A stretch of 52,872 bases of DNA from Elusimicrobiota bacterium (GTDB taxonomy: Bacteria; Elusimicrobiota; Elusimicrobia; UBA1565): contig JBDRPD010000032.1 of the NCBI GenBank assembly GCA_043827405.1, positions 1 to 52,872 on the forward strand, in the 5' to 3' direction. Positions 39,001 to 48,000 of the stretch are shown here, in pieces. Position 1 is the first letter of the stretch. Each line of letters begins with the position of its first letter. A program made the position numbers.

Positions 39001-42000
39001 CTCGCTGCCCTGGTGGTGGCTCGGCACCTCCATGGTCGCCACCACTTTCGCCGCCGACACTCCGCTCGCCATCACCGGCATCGTCGCCAAAAACGGCATC
39101 GCCGGCAACTGGTTCTGGTGGTGCTGGATATTCTCCAACGTCGCCATGACGGTGTTCTTTGCCGCGCGCTGGCGCCGCAGCAGGGTCATGACCGACGCCG
39201 AGCTCATCGAGCTGCGCTATGACGGCAAGCCCGCCGCCTTTCTGCGGAGCTTCAAGGCGCTGTTTCTCGCGATCGTCATCAACTGCATCATCCTGGGCTG
39301 GGTGTTTCGCGCCATGAGCAAGATCGCCGACCCCTTCATCCGCTGGGAAGCGCTTCTGCCCGCCGGCGCGTTCACCGCGCTCGTCTCCGGCTGGCCGTCC
39401 TGGCTGGTCTTCGATAATCCGAACAACACCATGACGGTACTGGTGATCTTCACGCTGGTGGTAATTTACAGCGGCTTCGGCGGCATTCGCGGCGTCATCC
39501 TGACCGATCTCCTGCAGTTCGGCATGGCCGTGGCCGGCAGCGTAACCTTCGCCGTGCTCGCCGTGTCCTACGTCGGCGGCATTGACGGGCTGCTCGGCCG
39601 CCTGCACAGCCAGTACCCGGACGCCGGCGAGATCCTCAGCTTCACCCCGTCTCTGGATGCGGTGTGGCTGCCGTTCCAGGTATTTCTCGTGTTCGTCCTG
39701 GTGCAGTGGTGGGCCAAGCACGACGCCGATGGTACCGGCTACCTGGCGCAGCGCATCTTGACGGCCAAGACCCCCCGGGACGCGGTACGGGGGTCGCTCT
39801 GGTATACGGTCGCCAACTTCGCGATCCGCACCTGGCCGTGGATTCTAGTCGGCTTGGCCGCGCTGGTGGTGTTCCCGAAAGGTGACGAAACAGCGATATT
39901 CAAGGAAGGCGCCGCGGTGGCCGCGGACCGCGAGATGGGCTATCCCATTCTCATGAAGCTGATCCTGCCGCCCGGCGTGCTGGGCCTGCTGTTCGCCAGC
40001 CTGCTGGCCGCCTTTATGTCGACGGTGGACACCCATCTAAACTGGGGCGCATCCTATCTGGTCAACGACGTCTATAAGCGCTTCCTGCGGCCCAAGGCCT
40101 CGCAGAAGGAACTCGTCGCGGCCGGCCGCATGTCTCTGGTCCTGCTGGCCGTCGCCGCTATCCTCATCGCCAGCCAGATCTCAAGCATCGAAAAAGCCTG
40201 GAAGTTCGTGATCGCACTGACCGCGGGAATGGGTCTGCCCACCATGCTGCGCTGGGTCTGGTGGCGCATCAACGCCTGGTCCGAGATCGCGGGGATGAGC
40301 TCGGCCATCCTGACCGCCGCCGTTCTATATACGCTTTACCCGAACGCCCGCGCCGAGTATATCCTGCTGGGGATCGTGGGCGTCAGCACGCTGTGCTGTC
40401 TCGCCGCGACGTACTGGGCGCCGGAAACCTCGAAGAAAAGACTGAAAGCCTTCTACAAGCTCATCGAGCCGGTGGGCTTCTGGGGCGACTACGCCGACCA
40501 GGAGCGCCGCACCGAAAACGGCTTCTACCGCTTGGGCGGCGCCTGGGTGCTGGGCTGCGCCGGCACTTTCGCCGCCATGTTCGGCGTCGGGCACTTGTGC
40601 CTGGCGCGGCCGCTGTTAGGTATAGTAATGCTTGCCGCGTCCGGCTTGCTGCTGCGCTGGACTCTTAAACTCGCCGAAACAGGAGTATCGACATGAGATG
40701 GTTTTTCCTGCTGCTGCTGGGCGCCGCCTTGAGCGGCTGCGTGAGCTCGCAAAAATACAAGCTGCTTTCAGATGCCGCGGAGAAGTCCCAATACTCGCTC
40801 GCCTCGGCGCACCAGACCATCGCCGTGGAAAAGAAGCGGGCGGAAGGGCTCGACGCGACCTTGGCGCGCGCCAAAGAACGCATCACCCAGCTCTCCGCGG
40901 AGCGCGAACGGCTCCACGGCGTCGAAGAGAACCTGTCGAAAGCGCTCAGCGCCAAGAGCGGCGAGCTCGCGCAGATGAACCTGAAGCTGCAGGATGAGAC
41001 CACGAAGGCGAAGGCAAGCCTGGCCCAGGCGCAGGAGCGCATCGGCAAGCTCGAGCGCCGCGTCGAAGAGCTGTCGCTGCTGCAGGACCAGCTCAGCGCG
41101 AAAGCGTCTCAGCTCGACAAGGAGCGCGTCCAGCTGCGGCAGAGCAACGAGGAGCTGACCCAGTCGCTCAAGTCCGGCCAGGACGAGCTGTCGCGCACCG
41201 TATCCAAGCTCAGCGCGGAAAAGCAGGAGCTGGCAAGCCGCATCGGCTCTCTCACCAAGGCGCAGGAAGAGCTCGACGCCAAAAAGACGCGCGAGCTCGA
41301 GGAGACGAAGACCACCTACGAAGGGCTTCTCGGCGAGCTCAAGGATGAGATCGAGCAGGGCGAGGTCAAGATCACGCAGTACCAGAACAAGCTCACCGTC
41401 AACGTGGCGGAAAAAATATTCTTCGACTCCGGCCGGGCCGCCGTCAAAGAGAGCGGCCGCGAGGTGCTGCTGCGGGTCGCGGACGTGATCCGCCACCTGC
41501 CCGACAAGCAGATCCGCATCGAAGGCCATACCGACAACGTTCCCCTGGCGCGCTTCCTGCGCGAGAAGTACCCCACGAACTGGGAGCTGTCGACCGCCCG
41601 CGCCACCAACGTGGCCCGGCTGCTGCAGGAAAAAGCGGGGCTCGATCCGACGCTGTTATCGGTGGCCGGCTATGGCGAGTACCGGCCCATCGCTTCCAAC
41701 GAGGCGCCCGAGGGACGAGCCCAGAACCGGCGCATCGAGATCGTGCTTCTCGACCGCGACCTGGGCCTGCCCGCCGGAGAGGCCGAGGCGCCGCCGATGC
41801 CCGTCGAACCCCTGCGGGACCTGGAAGAAAAGCAGCCTTAAGACGACCGCGGCACCAGCCCGTACTGTGGATGGTACTGGGCGTCCGGATTGCGGCCGAA
41901 CGCCGGCACTATTCCGTAGCCCGGCTCATAGCGCGGCACGCCGCCCAGCGGCGCGCGCCGGCCGGAGCCGTAGTCCGCTCCATAGCCCGAATAGTAGCCG

Positions 42001-45000: not shown

Positions 45001-48000
45001 CAGAAGTTCTCCGCCGTCAAGCGGTAAACGGTCCCCTGCGGCGGCCGCCATCCCTGAAGCTGACTCGGATCCTTGATCCCCTGCGGCATCGCCGTCGCAT
45101 AGCTCTGCGCGGTATCGACGACCGGTTTATTGGCCTCGATGATGCGCCACAGCTCCTTGCCGATATTGATGATGGTGGACGGATCGATGAGCTCGGGGGC
45201 AGGTTCTCCACAGGCGGCCGAGGCGGGAAACGGCATTCCCCCCGCCGGAGCCTCTCCGGCCGGGCCGAGTTCCTCGAGCTTGATGCTCGCCGGATCCAGC
45301 GTGTATATCTCCGGATGCTGGAGCGCCGCCGCAATCTCCTCAAACGAGAAGTTCTTCGGATCTATGTCCGGAAAACCGTCGCCGGCCCATAACGGCGAAG
45401 CCGACAGCAGCAGGGCCGCGAGCAGCGCTGGCACATCACGCATTACTTTCCTACCGCCGCGCGCAGGCGCCAGGATTCCATCTCCAGGTCGCGGGCCGCG
45501 TTCACGGCGTCCACGGTCTGCTGGCGGACGCTGCTGGCCTCGAGCTCGAAGCCGACGCGCCGCAGATCGTCGGCCGCGTTCCAGGAGGCGTTCGCCATCA
45601 ACTCCGCCTTAAACCGGAGGTGCTTGGCAGCGCCATAGAGCTCATCGACAGGCTTCACGAGAGACGGATCCCCGTAGCGGACAAACCGCCTGAGCCGCGC
45701 GGCATGGGCGGACAGGTAGTCGGCGCTCGTGTAGAAGCCGCGCAGGCCCCATGCCAAGCGTTGCGCCGCCTCGCCCAAAAGCCTGTCGGGATAGCGTCGG
45801 GACCGTGTCCGCACTTCGTCGATGGCCTTATTGAGGTCTTTAAGGTCTCCTTCCAACCTGGCGACGTCGTCGGCGGCGCGGCCGATCTCCTGAGCGAGGT
45901 TCGTCTGCTTGTCCTTGATCTGCGCCGCATGGGACTGGAGGATCTTCCCCCTCGCCTGGCCGAGCATGCTCGCAAAACTCATTGCCTGCTGAGCCGCGGC
46001 CGGAACGGCCAGGGCGACGGTTGCGATGAGCGTCGGTATGATTTTTTTCATTTCAGCCTCCTGAATACTCGTTATGACTTAGCCGGCCGCTGCGGGACGA
46101 ACGCCGGTCCGCCGCTGTAGCCGGGATCCTTAACGTAACCTTGGTACGGAACGTAGCGGTAGCCGGTCAGGCCCTGCATGGCCCGGCGGCCGCCGTCGTC
46201 CTTTAAAGGGAAGTAGCCGAAGCCGGCCGAATAGCCGTAGCCCGGACGGTAGGGCGGCGACGTGTACTGATAGCCCGGCACGTTCTGCGCGATGCCGCCG
46301 TTGGCGCGCTGGGCGCGCGACTCATTGCCCCGGTAATCGCCCGGATAGCCGAAGCCGATCTGGGCGTAGTGGCTGTAGGCAGCCGGCATCGCATAGCCCG
46401 GCATGTCGTAGGTCTGCGACCGGTTCCGGTAAACCGGGATACGCTGGTCCCCGTAGGGGCTGTCGAGGTAGCGGGTGACATAGGGATACTTCGGGCCAAT
46501 CACGTCGGCGACGGCGGCGCGGACATTATTGACCGTCGCCTCGACGTCGTTGAGGAAGTTGACGAATTTATCGCCCCAGGTCGGGTTGCGGCGCGGCGGG
46601 TAGTAGCCGTAGGGATTGCCCTGTCCGGGAAATCCCGGATAGCCGCCGCGATAGAAGGGATTGCCCTGATTATAAAGAGGCGAGGGCGGCAGATTCTGAA
46701 ACCCGCTGGGCCGTGGATTGTAGCGAACGGGGTACGGCGTGTAGCCATAGGGCAGCCGGGGATTGTAGCGGGTACTGCTCTGATACGGAACGCCGGGCCG
46801 CGGGTTCAGGTTCGGATAGGAATTGTACGGATTGGGATTGCGCACCGGATTGCGGTTATAGCCGCCGTCCCGGCGCGGCGGCGGCGTGAAAAAGGGCGTC
46901 GCGGTCACCGGCACGGCATTGCGCGAACGGCTGAGACTGGAGTCGAAGTAGCTGGTGTACATCTTGGCGGCATCCGCCGGCGAGTAAGGATTGGCCATGG
47001 TCTCAAGGTCCATCATCATGGCCTCACCCGTAGTGGAACCCATAACCTCGAACGAAGCCCGCGCCGGGGAAGCGCCCAGCGTCAGCGCGAGGATCAGGCC
47101 CGAGATCAGCTTGATTTTCATCATCCTTCCTCCTTACATCCCGTCATTTGGCAAATAAAAAACGGGATCACCGCATGCAGCAGTTACTACTGCATTCGGT
47201 GATCCCGTGGGTACACCCCGCAAGGCGGGGTCGCGTTTCACCCCGGGGCTAGTCCCCCAGGTTACACGAGTTGCGGCTCAGCTGCGTCGCAAAGAACAAT
47301 ACGTCTCTACGTCCTACAATGATTATAGCACGAAAGGCCTGTGAATGTAAGAGACATTAGGCCCATATCGATCTTCCCCAAAGGGCCTATACGGGCATAT
47401 GTTATAATCGGCCCGATCCATGACCGACGAAATACCGGAAAACCGGGTCAAAACAGCCATTCAGGGGATTCTGGGAGCTCTGGCCGGGGCGCTGATCGGA
47501 CATGGCGCGGTCGCTCTATCGCAAATCCTGACAGCCCGCACCGCTTCGCTGAGGCCGCCCGACGCCCCGACCTTCTTCACCCTGGCCCTCTACACCGCCT
47601 GCCTTTACGGCGGATTGGGCGCCGGGATATTTCGCGGACCGGAGCGCCTGCGGGGAGCGGTCAAAGGCTTCGGTACGGCCGCAGTTCTAATTGCCGCCCC
47701 CCTGATTCCGGCGACCTATCTGCTGCGGACCGGCGGCGGCGGAGCAGCAAACTATGCCTTCGTGCACCTGCTGGTATACATGGGAGCATCCTTGGCTACG
47801 GTCTGGGTGCTGGGAGCGGGAGCGCGCAATCAAGGGCTGCTGCGCGGCTGGAAAGCCGGCTTGGGCGCGGTACTCGGCGCGTTGGCGGCGCAAATACTCT
47901 CGGCCGTCATCAGCGCCATCCTGCCCGGCCTGCGCGTTTATCCGCTGGGGCCGCTGCCGCCGCCGGCCATGCTCATTGAAGCGATCCTCTGCGGCGCCTT

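What a model noticed while it worked through the whole genome (the two positions that open the first line are those of the whole stretch)
41838..47272. New core variant of the purine-riboswitch fold upstream of secreted-protein and subtilisin operons
Two 71-72-nt elements (C32:47202-47272 minus strand; C50:195786-195857 minus strand) have the three-helix purine-riboswitch architecture but a different, strictly conserved junction core (J1/2 GUGUAAC, a 2-nt longer J2/3 GGUGAAAYGCG, J3/1 ACCCAC) and score below Rfam's cut for every purine-type family. I read them as a new riboswitch class derived from the guanine/2'-dG fold that binds a ligand other than guanine, adenine or 2'-dG and switches on exported hydrolases. 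If true it adds a riboswitch class with an unknown ligand and an unusual regulon (six signal-peptide proteins incl. a subtilisin; a secreted alpha/beta hydrolase with alcohol and aldehyde dehydrogenases).
Evidence so far: Found as sub-threshold 2dG-II (RF03165) hits: 52.0 and 42.3 bits vs cut 60; in a scan of all 4227 Rfam families 2dG-II stays the only hit for 5 of 5 variant copies tested, 42-53 bits. 12 distinct examples from this genome and 3 relatives align with 34 invariant columns, all junctions among them (A2, call 75). For the 3-helix structure 98.7% of 228 cells pair and 8 of 19 pairs change on both sides (0 of 500 shuffles reach this; slid registers give 0-2). A covariance model of the variant (R1, call 148) splits hits in 61 genomes of the order in two: 17 hits at 78-94 bits in 5 genomes of two families (this genome 2, G405 6, G406 6, G176 2, G411 1), then nothing until 66 bits, where ordinary 2dG- [...]
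(Added by a program. Inside this text positions count along the whole contig: contig position 1 is position 1 of the stretch shown here. "Call 12" and the like, gene names such as g00115 and contig names such as C1 are that model's own, and its searches are not shown. The text may have been shortened before it was handed on; [...] marks where a part breaks off. The agent that wrote the report below was given it as the finding of a first reader that could run no searches.)

Follow-up and report, generated by a model that had tools for sequence, protein, structure and literature searches.

The report
Remodelled 2'-deoxyguanosine riboswitch variant in Elusimicrobiota
This is a real RNA on-switch, descended from a known 2'-deoxyguanosine-sensing riboswitch but with one strand of its binding pocket rebuilt, so it probably senses a different guanine-containing molecule (possibly something else entirely) to turn on operons of secreted proteins.

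Summary
The element is real: a purine-type three-way junction at 47204-47270 (minus strand), behind a sigma70-like promoter and overlapping an intrinsic terminator, ahead of a six-gene secreted-protein operon. I found 24 distinct copies, in two orders of one class whose named records are Elusimicrobia. They form one clade within 2'-dG-II riboswitches, and all 12 tested score below Rfam's cut. In 23 of 24 a terminator takes P1's 3' strand, so it is an ON switch.

J1/2 and J3/1 length match canonical 2'-dG-II. The change is mainly in J2/3 (GUAUCCAC to GUGAAAYGC, +1 nt, not +2), plus C77. The guanine-pairing C78 is kept in 24 of 24. The new tandem As have a precedent in 2'-dG-III, where the equivalent A binds the sugar. 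Secreted targets are also the norm for canonical copies.

Best reading: a guanine-nucleoside sensor with a rebuilt sugar pocket. Bold rival: the inserted G pairs with C78 as an internal ligand, as in ppGpp-to-PRPP, implying a non-purine ligand. The ligand is untested. The scan had no look-alike by sequence; it earlier noted the canonical class elsewhere. Weinberg 2017 was unreadable.

The parts
47322..47351 (-). sigma70-like promoter (-35 box, TG, TATAAT); start site inferred near 47315
   Evidence: 10 of 12 matches with TG; 3 sites found in 6.1 kb vs 1.6 in shuffles, so position, not score, carries the argument
47204..47270 (-). Variant 2'-dG-II-type aptamer: P1 47270-47265/47209-47204, J1/2 47264-47262, P2 47261-47242, P3 47231-47215, J3/1 47214-47210
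47233..47241 (-). Remodelled J2/3 (G46 U47 inserted-G A48 A49 A50 C51 G52 C53 in env1 numbering): the diagnostic feature
47210..47211 (-). C77 and C78; C78 is the base that pairs with guanine in purine riboswitches
   Evidence: C78 in 24 of 24, C77 in 22 of 24; role of C78 from PMC6847200
47153..47208 (-). Intrinsic terminator (-36.7 kcal/mol hairpin plus U tract) whose 5' arm uses 5 nt of the P1 3' strand
   Evidence: the consensus scan did not list it
46072..47124 (-). ORF1, 350 aa, signal peptide, Pro/Gly/Tyr-rich, no Pfam family; paralog of ORF6
   Evidence: signal peptide judged from sequence
45443..46051 (-). ORF2, 202 aa, signal peptide, only weak coiled-coil-type Pfam hits below cut-off; family found in 48 of 101 genomes of the order
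44619..45443 (-). ORF3, 274 aa secreted protein of unknown function, paralog of ORF4
43880..44608 (-). ORF4, 242 aa secreted beta-rich protein; family in Elusimicrobiota with a related Bdellovibrionota cluster; no clear fold match
42593..43876 (-). Secreted subtilisin (Peptidase_S8), 427 aa
   Evidence: E 2.6e-55
41838..42596 (-). ORF6, 252 aa, signal peptide, paralog of ORF1; last gene of the run

Best explanation
A transcriptional ON riboswitch derived once from 2'-dG-II. Without ligand, the terminator captures the 3' strand of P1 and transcription stops near 47157 (architecture shown; switching inferred). Ligand closes the junction, holds P1, and lets polymerase read into the secreted-protein operon. 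The base-reading half of the pocket is kept: C78 pairs with a guanine ring, Y51 reads its sugar edge, and Y22-G52 with C77 forms the ceiling in place of U22-A52 with A77/U77 (inferred by alignment to solved structures). The sugar-reading half is rebuilt: A49 and A50 replace U49 and C50 on the top P1 pairs, as in 2'-dG-III, and an extra conserved G lengthens the lid. The ligand is therefore most likely guanine-containing but with a sugar-side preference unlike 2'-dG-II: guanosine or the G-nucleoside pool first, a phosphorylated or cyclic G nucleotide second. The switch would report nucleic-acid breakdown products and induce exported proteases and other secreted proteins (inferred).
For: Terminator overlap in 23 of 24 copies. 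Terminated state -82.7 vs P1-enforced -70.5 kcal/mol for the window leader. C78 in 24 of 24, Y51 in 23 of 24; C22 in 3 of 24 variant copies, all with G52, vs 0 of 93 canonical (Fisher p 0.008, kin not independent). Positions 22/52/77 read U-or-C/G/C in 22 of 24 variants vs U/A/A-or-U in 80 of 93 canonical, so the layer changed together and the register is kept. In 2'-dG-III the J2/3 is G-C-A-A-U-A-C; its tandem As sit on the top two P1 pairs and the second A bonds the sugar O4' and 3'-OH (PMC12282948). That class binds guanine, guanosine and 2'-dG similarly (PMC12342879). Monophyletic within 2'-dG-II with J2/3 removed, support 0.9. Canonical copies are kept in the same genomes, which argues for a distinct input.
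Against: No ligand was tested. Position 51 is relaxed (non-C in 6 of 24 vs 2 of 93, p 0.0009), unexpected for a ligand contact. Its pyrimidine bias could instead come from an alternative pairing with G21 seen in the ligand-free fold. C50, described as conserved through the family (PMC6847200), is lost. An inserted G together with C78 resembles the G48-C74 combination that blocks ligand binding (PMC2847212). Of 15 variant first genes scanned, none hit a nucleoside-metabolism or nuclease family (6 had Pfam hits, 9 had none), so gene context gives no support for the ligand. The two 2'-dG-III papers disagree on whether C at the 51-equivalent is tolerated beside the A (lost binding in PMC12282948, retained in PMC12342879). 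2'-dG-III does not bind 2'-dGMP (PMC12342879).
Confidence: 0.45

Rival explanations
1. Self-liganded pocket, new ligand. The inserted G flips into the purine site and pairs with C78, with Y51 on its sugar edge. The RNA then binds a non-purine molecule in the rebuilt sugar-side pocket (for example a pentose or pentose phosphate, the remainder of 2'-dG), as G96 replaces the base of ppGpp in PRPP riboswitches.
For: G at the third position of J2/3 with C78 occurs in 23 of 24 variants and 0 of 93 canonical copies; the one canonical copy with G there has U78. In an engineered aptamer G39 (=48) occupies the ligand site by pairing with C65 (=74) and abolishes binding, and that combination is excluded in natural G riboswitches (PMC2847212). 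ppGpp-to-PRPP precedent with a 40,000-fold switch (PMC6031431). Relaxed position 51. Terminators are conserved, so something must still switch it.
Against: One copy (L139) lacks the G yet keeps A-A-C-G-C and a terminator. With the insertion, A48 is still present and Rfam's model aligns the G as an insert, so the geometry is not that of the tested mutant. No sugar-catabolism gene was recognised among the targets; the ADH and hydrolase shared by two genera are unassigned.
Confidence: 0.2
2. Still a 2'-dG sensor: a diverged 2'-dG-II subfamily with a different affinity or threshold, giving a second tier of induction for secreted proteins.
For: First-shell identities U22, C51, C78 (the UCC signature of 2'-dG-II) hold in most copies, with G21-C79 and a 5-nt J3/1. 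Tested 2'-dG-II members already span KD 34-2400 nM (PMC6847200). Subtilisins follow both types.
Against: C50 and U49, which contact the deoxyribose in env1, are both replaced. With J2/3 unconstrained, 23 of 23 folded hits carry the same new J2/3, which looks like selection for a new contact. Nuclease-type targets follow canonical copies (3 MBL-fold, 1 PLD) but were not recognised among variant first genes.
Confidence: 0.2
3. J2/3 folds as a T-loop (G46-C53 closing UGAAA plus two extruded bases) whose intercalation slot binds a planar ligand, giving a new pocket architecture.
For: The sequence fits the T-loop consensus (recalled, no call): a 7-nt loop closed by G-C, with a variable sixth base; G46-C53 pairs in 19 of 19.
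Against: C22 appearing only with G52 and the joint 22/52/77 change fit the ordinary purine stack. L138 has C at the first loop position, L139 lacks one loop base, and L163 has C46.
Confidence: 0.07
4. Degenerate or ligand-independent leader: a dead 2'-dG-II aptamer copied with its genes, acting as a fixed attenuator.
For: Single origin, so conservation partly reflects descent. Two copies ahead of similar genes in one genus (L139, L163) deviate in different ways.
Against: Stems covary while J2/3 stays nearly fixed at 76% mean scaffold identity across two orders. Terminators of unrelated sequence keep the P1 overlap in 23 of 24.
Confidence: 0.05

Closest known systems
2'-dG-II riboswitch (Rfam RF03165; env1 structure 6P2H, PMC6847200)
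   Same: Three-way junction, L2 GG / L3 CC, G21-C79 top pair, 5-nt J3/1, C78, mostly C51, terminator ON architecture, same genomes, secreted targets; the variant nests inside this class.
   Different: J2/3 is GUGAAAYGC instead of GYAUCCAC (inserted G, U49A, C50A, A52G), C77, fixed G19-C81; below the gathering score in 12 of 12 tested.
2'-dG-III riboswitch (PMC9295807, PMC12282948, PMC12342879)
   Same: Tandem As immediately before the sugar-edge pyrimidine (A-A-Y-R-C), cytosine that pairs with guanine, ON switch by terminator.
   Different: 2'-dG-III has a J2/3 core 2 nt shorter, an A-U top P1 pair, U at the 51-equivalent, occurs in Firmicutes and precedes nucleoside hydrolases; the likeness looks convergent.
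G39-C65 self-liganded pbuE U65C mutant (PMC2847212) and the PRPP/ppGpp ykkC pair (PMC6031431)
   Same: An RNA guanine placed near the cytosine that would pair with the ligand's guanine.
   Different: The first is an engineered, non-binding mutant without the insertion; the second is another scaffold. Both are mechanistic precedents, not relatives.
Guanine-II, xanthine-II and 8-oxoguanine riboswitches (PMC9295807, PMC12445698, PMC10556655)
   Same: Rare junction variants of the purine scaffold, ON switches, C at the 74-equivalent; xanthine-II has G51 like the C50 copy.
   Different: Their insertions lie at the 3' end of J2/3 and in J3/1 (or U47 is deleted); they keep the A-U top pair with its C triple; Firmicutes; purine-metabolism genes.

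Membership tests
2'-dG-II riboswitch | Three-helix junction with L2-L3 GG/CC kissing bases | tested here: met
   L2 GG in 22 of 24 and L3 CC in 24 of 24 (the parser rewards these bases); the window copy has AG
2'-dG-II riboswitch | G21-C79 junction-proximal pair | tested here: met
   19 of 19, but the search patterns required it
2'-dG-II riboswitch | Lengthened J3/1 ending in C78 | tested here: met
   5 nt in 23 of 24 (one parsed as 6), C78 in 24 of 24; position 75 varies, as it does in canonical copies of this lineage
2'-dG-II riboswitch | C51 on the ligand sugar edge | tested here: inconclusive
   C 18, U 5, G 1 of 24, vs C 91 of 93 canonical
2'-dG-II riboswitch | U49 and C50 forming the deoxyribose pocket and P1 triples | tested here: not met
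   A-A in 24 of 24 (part of how the set is defined, but confirmed in 23 of 23 hits of a J2/3-free search)
2'-dG-II riboswitch | U22-A52 pair | tested here: not met
   G52 in 24 of 24 with U22 (21) or C22 (3)
2'-dG-II riboswitch | Rfam RF03165 gathering score 60 | tested here: not met
   12 of 12 copies at 37.5-58.7 bits
2'-dG-II riboswitch | Binds 2'-deoxyguanosine | not testable with these tools
   needs probing or ITC
2'-dG-III riboswitch | Tandem As before the sugar-edge pyrimidine | tested here: met
   against PMC12282948
2'-dG-III riboswitch | A-U top P1 pair, G-C-A-A-U-A-C core, nucleoside hydrolase gene | tested here: not met
   G-C top pair, 9-nt core, no such family among 15 first genes
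xanthine-II riboswitch | G at position 51 | tested here: not met
   1 of 24; feature from PMC9295807 and PMC12445698
guanine-II riboswitch | U51 with an extra A at the 3' end of J2/3 and a 4-nt J3/1 insertion | tested here: not met
   U51 in 5 of 24; the insertion lies after position 47; features from PMC12445698
transcriptional ON riboswitch | Intrinsic terminator mutually exclusive with P1 | tested here: met
   23 of 24, 3-6 nt of overlap, -20 to -46 kcal/mol

The most novel reading that the evidence does not exclude
A natural purine-fold riboswitch that fills its own guanine site with an internal G and has been repurposed to sense a non-purine metabolite (such as a pentose or pentose phosphate), controlling the secreted arsenal of free-living Elusimicrobiota. 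It would be a natural use of the G48-C74 combination reported as excluded from guanine riboswitches.
Probability: 0.2. Interest if true: 0.85.

Novelty: new variant of a known kind. Interest (0 to 1): 0.58.

Why it matters
The purine scaffold is the best-studied model of how RNA pockets change specificity, and each natural junction variant so far has been published as a new class. This one has 24 natural sequences, a clear expression platform and sharp mutational tests, so its ligand is directly testable. If it senses guanosine or a G nucleotide, it adds a class and shows convergence on the 2'-dG-III sugar pocket from a different parent. If the inserted G is an internal ligand, it repeats the ppGpp-to-PRPP route on a second scaffold. 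Either way it points to a small-molecule cue for secreted proteases and uncharacterised proteins in a poorly known phylum.

Tried and rejected
Viral contigs: 15 pattern hits; those printed showed no P2/P3 hairpins by eye and were taken as chance. Three non-Elusimicrobia hits of the GTDB scan and 5 of 10 metagenome hits lacked the helices.

A first pair count used a mis-registered structure and was discarded.

Swap test: upstream DNA (1.5 kb) of ORF2 homologues held no further riboswitch of either type in 29 non-window loci. For a second target family, 5 of 30 loci had the variant and none a canonical copy. No canonical-to-variant swap on one gene was seen.

The guanine deaminase at 49758-51143 has no homologue in any fetched locus and lies beyond a divergent gene, so it was not used as a ligand clue. 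A paralogue of a variant target downstream of the canonical C54 switch sits behind a 545-nt gap and was not counted as co-regulated.

ORF4 fold: no Foldseek match at E<=0.001; best VIA-align Z 5.4, within background. Atlas search of the L017 protein gave only a 0.80 lead.

RNA runs: one 238-nt contig, 6 differences, over 46804-47041 in X1; contigs cannot show strand, ends or expression, so it is not used. A search for more copies like L175 found 0 in 5 genomes of its genus.

Literature: riboswitch + Elusimicrobia (4 papers), + Elusimicrobiota (1), and variant searches listed nothing describing this junction. Supplement text searches for the J2/3 motif in PMC6847200 and PMC9295807 found 0 hits (figures are not searchable). 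Weinberg et al. 2017 PNAS and its supplement were not available.

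
Full report
Observation. On the minus strand, 47270-47204 forms a three-helix junction that Rfam scores at 42.3 bits to 2dG-II (cut 60), the only riboswitch hit in 40000-52872. 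The genome holds four such aptamers: two canonical copies over the cut (C54 70.6, C13 64.4) and the two variants (C50 52.0, C32 42.3). On 19 distinct variant sequences, 98.2% of 380 cells pair, 9 of 20 pairs change on both sides, none of 500 shuffles reaches this, and slid registers give 0-2. P2 and P3 carry most of the covariation; P1 has one two-sided change and three invariant pairs. A sigma70-like promoter lies at 47351-47322. Six genes follow head to tail from 47124 to 41838, with gaps of 20 nt or less. All begin with signal-peptide-like sequences (judged from sequence). One is a subtilisin; the others have no Pfam family over cut-off.

Range. A pattern scan of the order found 14 copies in 4 of 101 genomes. 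A scan of GTDB genomes gave 19 stretches: 16 titled Elusimicrobia, all folded, and 3 from other phyla, none folded. The metagenome scan gave 10 stretches, 5 folded, 3 of them new. A covariance model found 16 hits at 80.7-94 bits in the order, two intermediates at 72.9 and 67.9, then canonical copies from 64.6 down. In a family of another order it found 7 hits at 81-97 bits, then 59.9 down. In a 151-genome phylum sample, matches were confined to three families of the class; not found in the others searched. In all, 24 distinct variant aptamers came from 13 genomes and 3 metagenome contigs, and were compared with 93 canonical ones; 3 odd rows were set aside. The canonical set is not random: it is the top of two searches plus chosen low scorers. 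Named homologues of ORF4 are also Elusimicrobia.

What differs (env1 numbering, by my alignment to PMC6847200, parts 1-5 of 6 read). J1/2 is UAA in 21 of 24 and in 47 of 93 canonical copies. J3/1 has the canonical length and ends in C78 in 24 of 24. The change is in J2/3: GUAUCCAC becomes GUGAAAYGC, that is an inserted G, U49A, C50A and A52G, with C77 in 22 of 24 (4 of 93 canonical) and G19 in 24 of 24 (29 of 93). My first patterns demanded this J2/3, so I repeated the search with J2/3 free and only the P1 and J3/1 scaffold fixed. Of 46 matches in 181 genomes, 23 folded (judged by eye) and all 23 carried UGAAANGC; the rest were at the level of the reversed-pattern control. With J2/3 removed, the 24 still form one clade (FastTree 0.9, about 75 columns, rooted on one canonical copy). 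So the variant arose once from 2'-dG-II, and part of its conservation is inheritance. Every carrier checked also has canonical copies over the cut: this genome, G007, G008 and G095, and 5 of 5 in the other order.

Switch. In 23 of 24 copies a hairpin of -20 to -46 kcal/mol followed by a U tract takes 3-6 nt of the P1 3' strand, with unrelated loop sequences. The exception, L138, has no U tract and by eye a short hairpin into its ribosome-binding site. For the window leader the terminated fold is -82.7 kcal/mol and the P1-enforced fold -70.5. Default OFF, with read-through when P1 is stabilised, is the same logic reported for guanine-II, 2'-dG-III and 8-oxoguanine switches (PMC9295807, parts 1-4 of 6; PMC10556655, part 2 of 7; PMC12445698, parts 2-3 of 7 and passages). 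The architecture is shown; ligand dependence is inferred.

Ligand, best reading. In env1, C78 pairs with the guanine ring, C51 reads its sugar edge, U22-A52 with A77 is the ceiling, and U49, C50 and position 48 hold the deoxyribose. The variant keeps C78 and a pyrimidine at 51 in 23 of 24. C22 appears in 3 of 24, always with G52, and in 0 of 93 canonical copies with A52; positions 22/52/77 change together. This keeps the ordinary register. The lost residues are the sugar-side ones, and their replacement has a precedent. 2'-dG-III has G-C-A-A-U-A-C, with the two As on the top P1 pairs and the second bonding O4' and 3'-OH (PMC12282948, part 2 of 5). It binds guanine, guanosine and 2'-dG similarly, gains affinity and 2'-dG selectivity when that A becomes C, and rejects 2'-dGMP (PMC12342879, passages and sections 14, 17). 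I therefore expect a guanine-containing ligand with a changed sugar preference (0.45), or still 2'-dG at another threshold (0.2).

Against it. Position 51 is relaxed (6 of 24 non-C vs 2 of 93). The ligand-free fold pairs G19-G21 with C53-C51, which could explain both Y51 and G19 without a ligand contact. The two 2'-dG-III papers disagree on a C at that place. Most important, G in the third J2/3 position with C78 is found in 23 of 24 variants and in no canonical copy; the single canonical copy with G there has U78. That combination is reported as excluded in G riboswitches because the G fills the pocket (PMC2847212, abstract and sections 15-16), and the same trick turns a ppGpp pocket into a PRPP pocket (PMC6031431, passages). 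L139 lacks the G, but it and L163 precede similar genes in one genus and deviate differently, so they may be decaying rather than ancestral.

Regulon. First genes have a hydrophobic N-terminus in 21 of 25 variant and 35 of 56 canonical cases (heuristic, imperfect start calls). Among 15 variant first genes, Pfam found S8, M48, an alpha/beta hydrolase, TPR, PilZ and a Cys-rich repeat. Among 43 canonical ones it found MBL-fold (3), PLD, phosphatase, receiver domains, S8 and a hydrolase; receiver, PLD, ComEC and endonuclease targets are the reported 2'-dG-II context (PMC8872408, passages). The window's gene set (S8, ORF3, ORF4, ORF2, ORF1/6) recurs under variant copies in G007 and G008. The C50 hydrolase and ADH recur after a variant copy in G007 and have homologues on a variant-bearing contig of G008. 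One secreted family follows the variant in both orders (E 5e-5 directly, stronger through relatives). ORF4's family has a related Bdellovibrionota cluster, a hint of a predatory or lytic role that I could not test. So the regulon is coherent and leans to proteases rather than nucleases, but 'secreted' does not set it apart from 2'-dG-II and it names no ligand.

Novelty. Not a member of 2'-dG-II by three tested features, nor of 2'-dG-III, guanine-II or xanthine-II; it works like them. Searches listed no description, and the motif was absent from two supplements' text. Weinberg et al. 2017, whose variant groups were defined on positions 22, 51 and 74 (as described in PMC6847200), could not be read; most copies would fall in its UCC group, and its supplement may hold some. 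Verdict: new variant of a known kind, interest 0.58.

Noticed in passing
L175:232-303 (-) = G263:C85:101429-101504: A 2dG-II-scoring aptamer (61.3 bits) with G48, C51 and U78 plus a terminator: the pattern expected of an adenine-nucleoside sensor. Single copy, one P2 mismatch; 0 similar hits in 5 genomes of its genus.
   Followed up: partly
L200 = G067:C88:33644-33718: Otherwise canonical 2'-dG-II aptamer with U78; may be a mutation, an assembly error or another adenine-type variant.
   Followed up: no
order of G000: 2dG-II matches occur in 70 of 101 genomes of the order (67 over the cut), up to 12 per genome: this lineage looks like a main home of the class, which one paper (PMC8872408) places in Bacteroidetes.
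   Followed up: partly
L166, L170-L172, L174, L178-L182: A canonical subtype without a terminator in which J2/3 UCCACC looks complementary to the downstream ribosome-binding site (by eye): probably a translational platform.
   Followed up: no
L163:3426-3501 (-) = G095:C52:16925-17000: Variant copy with C22, G23 and C46 together, changing two partners of the A23.G46-C53 triple.
   Followed up: partly
window 49758-51143 (-) and 48043-49758 (-): Guanine deaminase (NF006679 over cut-off) and gamma-glutamyltranspeptidase lie 0.8-4 kb upstream, separated from the riboswitch by a divergent gene; not linked at other loci.
   Followed up: partly
L011:294-608: One variant copy precedes a stand-alone PilZ-domain protein, a c-di-GMP effector family and one of the few targets without a signal peptide.
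   Followed up: no
window 52156-52226 (+) and 52215-52856 (-): A tRNA gene abuts a reading frame that resembles the C-terminal part of a large serine recombinase (recalled resemblance, no call) at the contig end: a possible integration site.
   Followed up: no
window 36154-36672 (-) and L263:12287-12832: A secreted 172-aa window protein resembles, by eye, the last gene of the variant-led run in G007.
   Followed up: no
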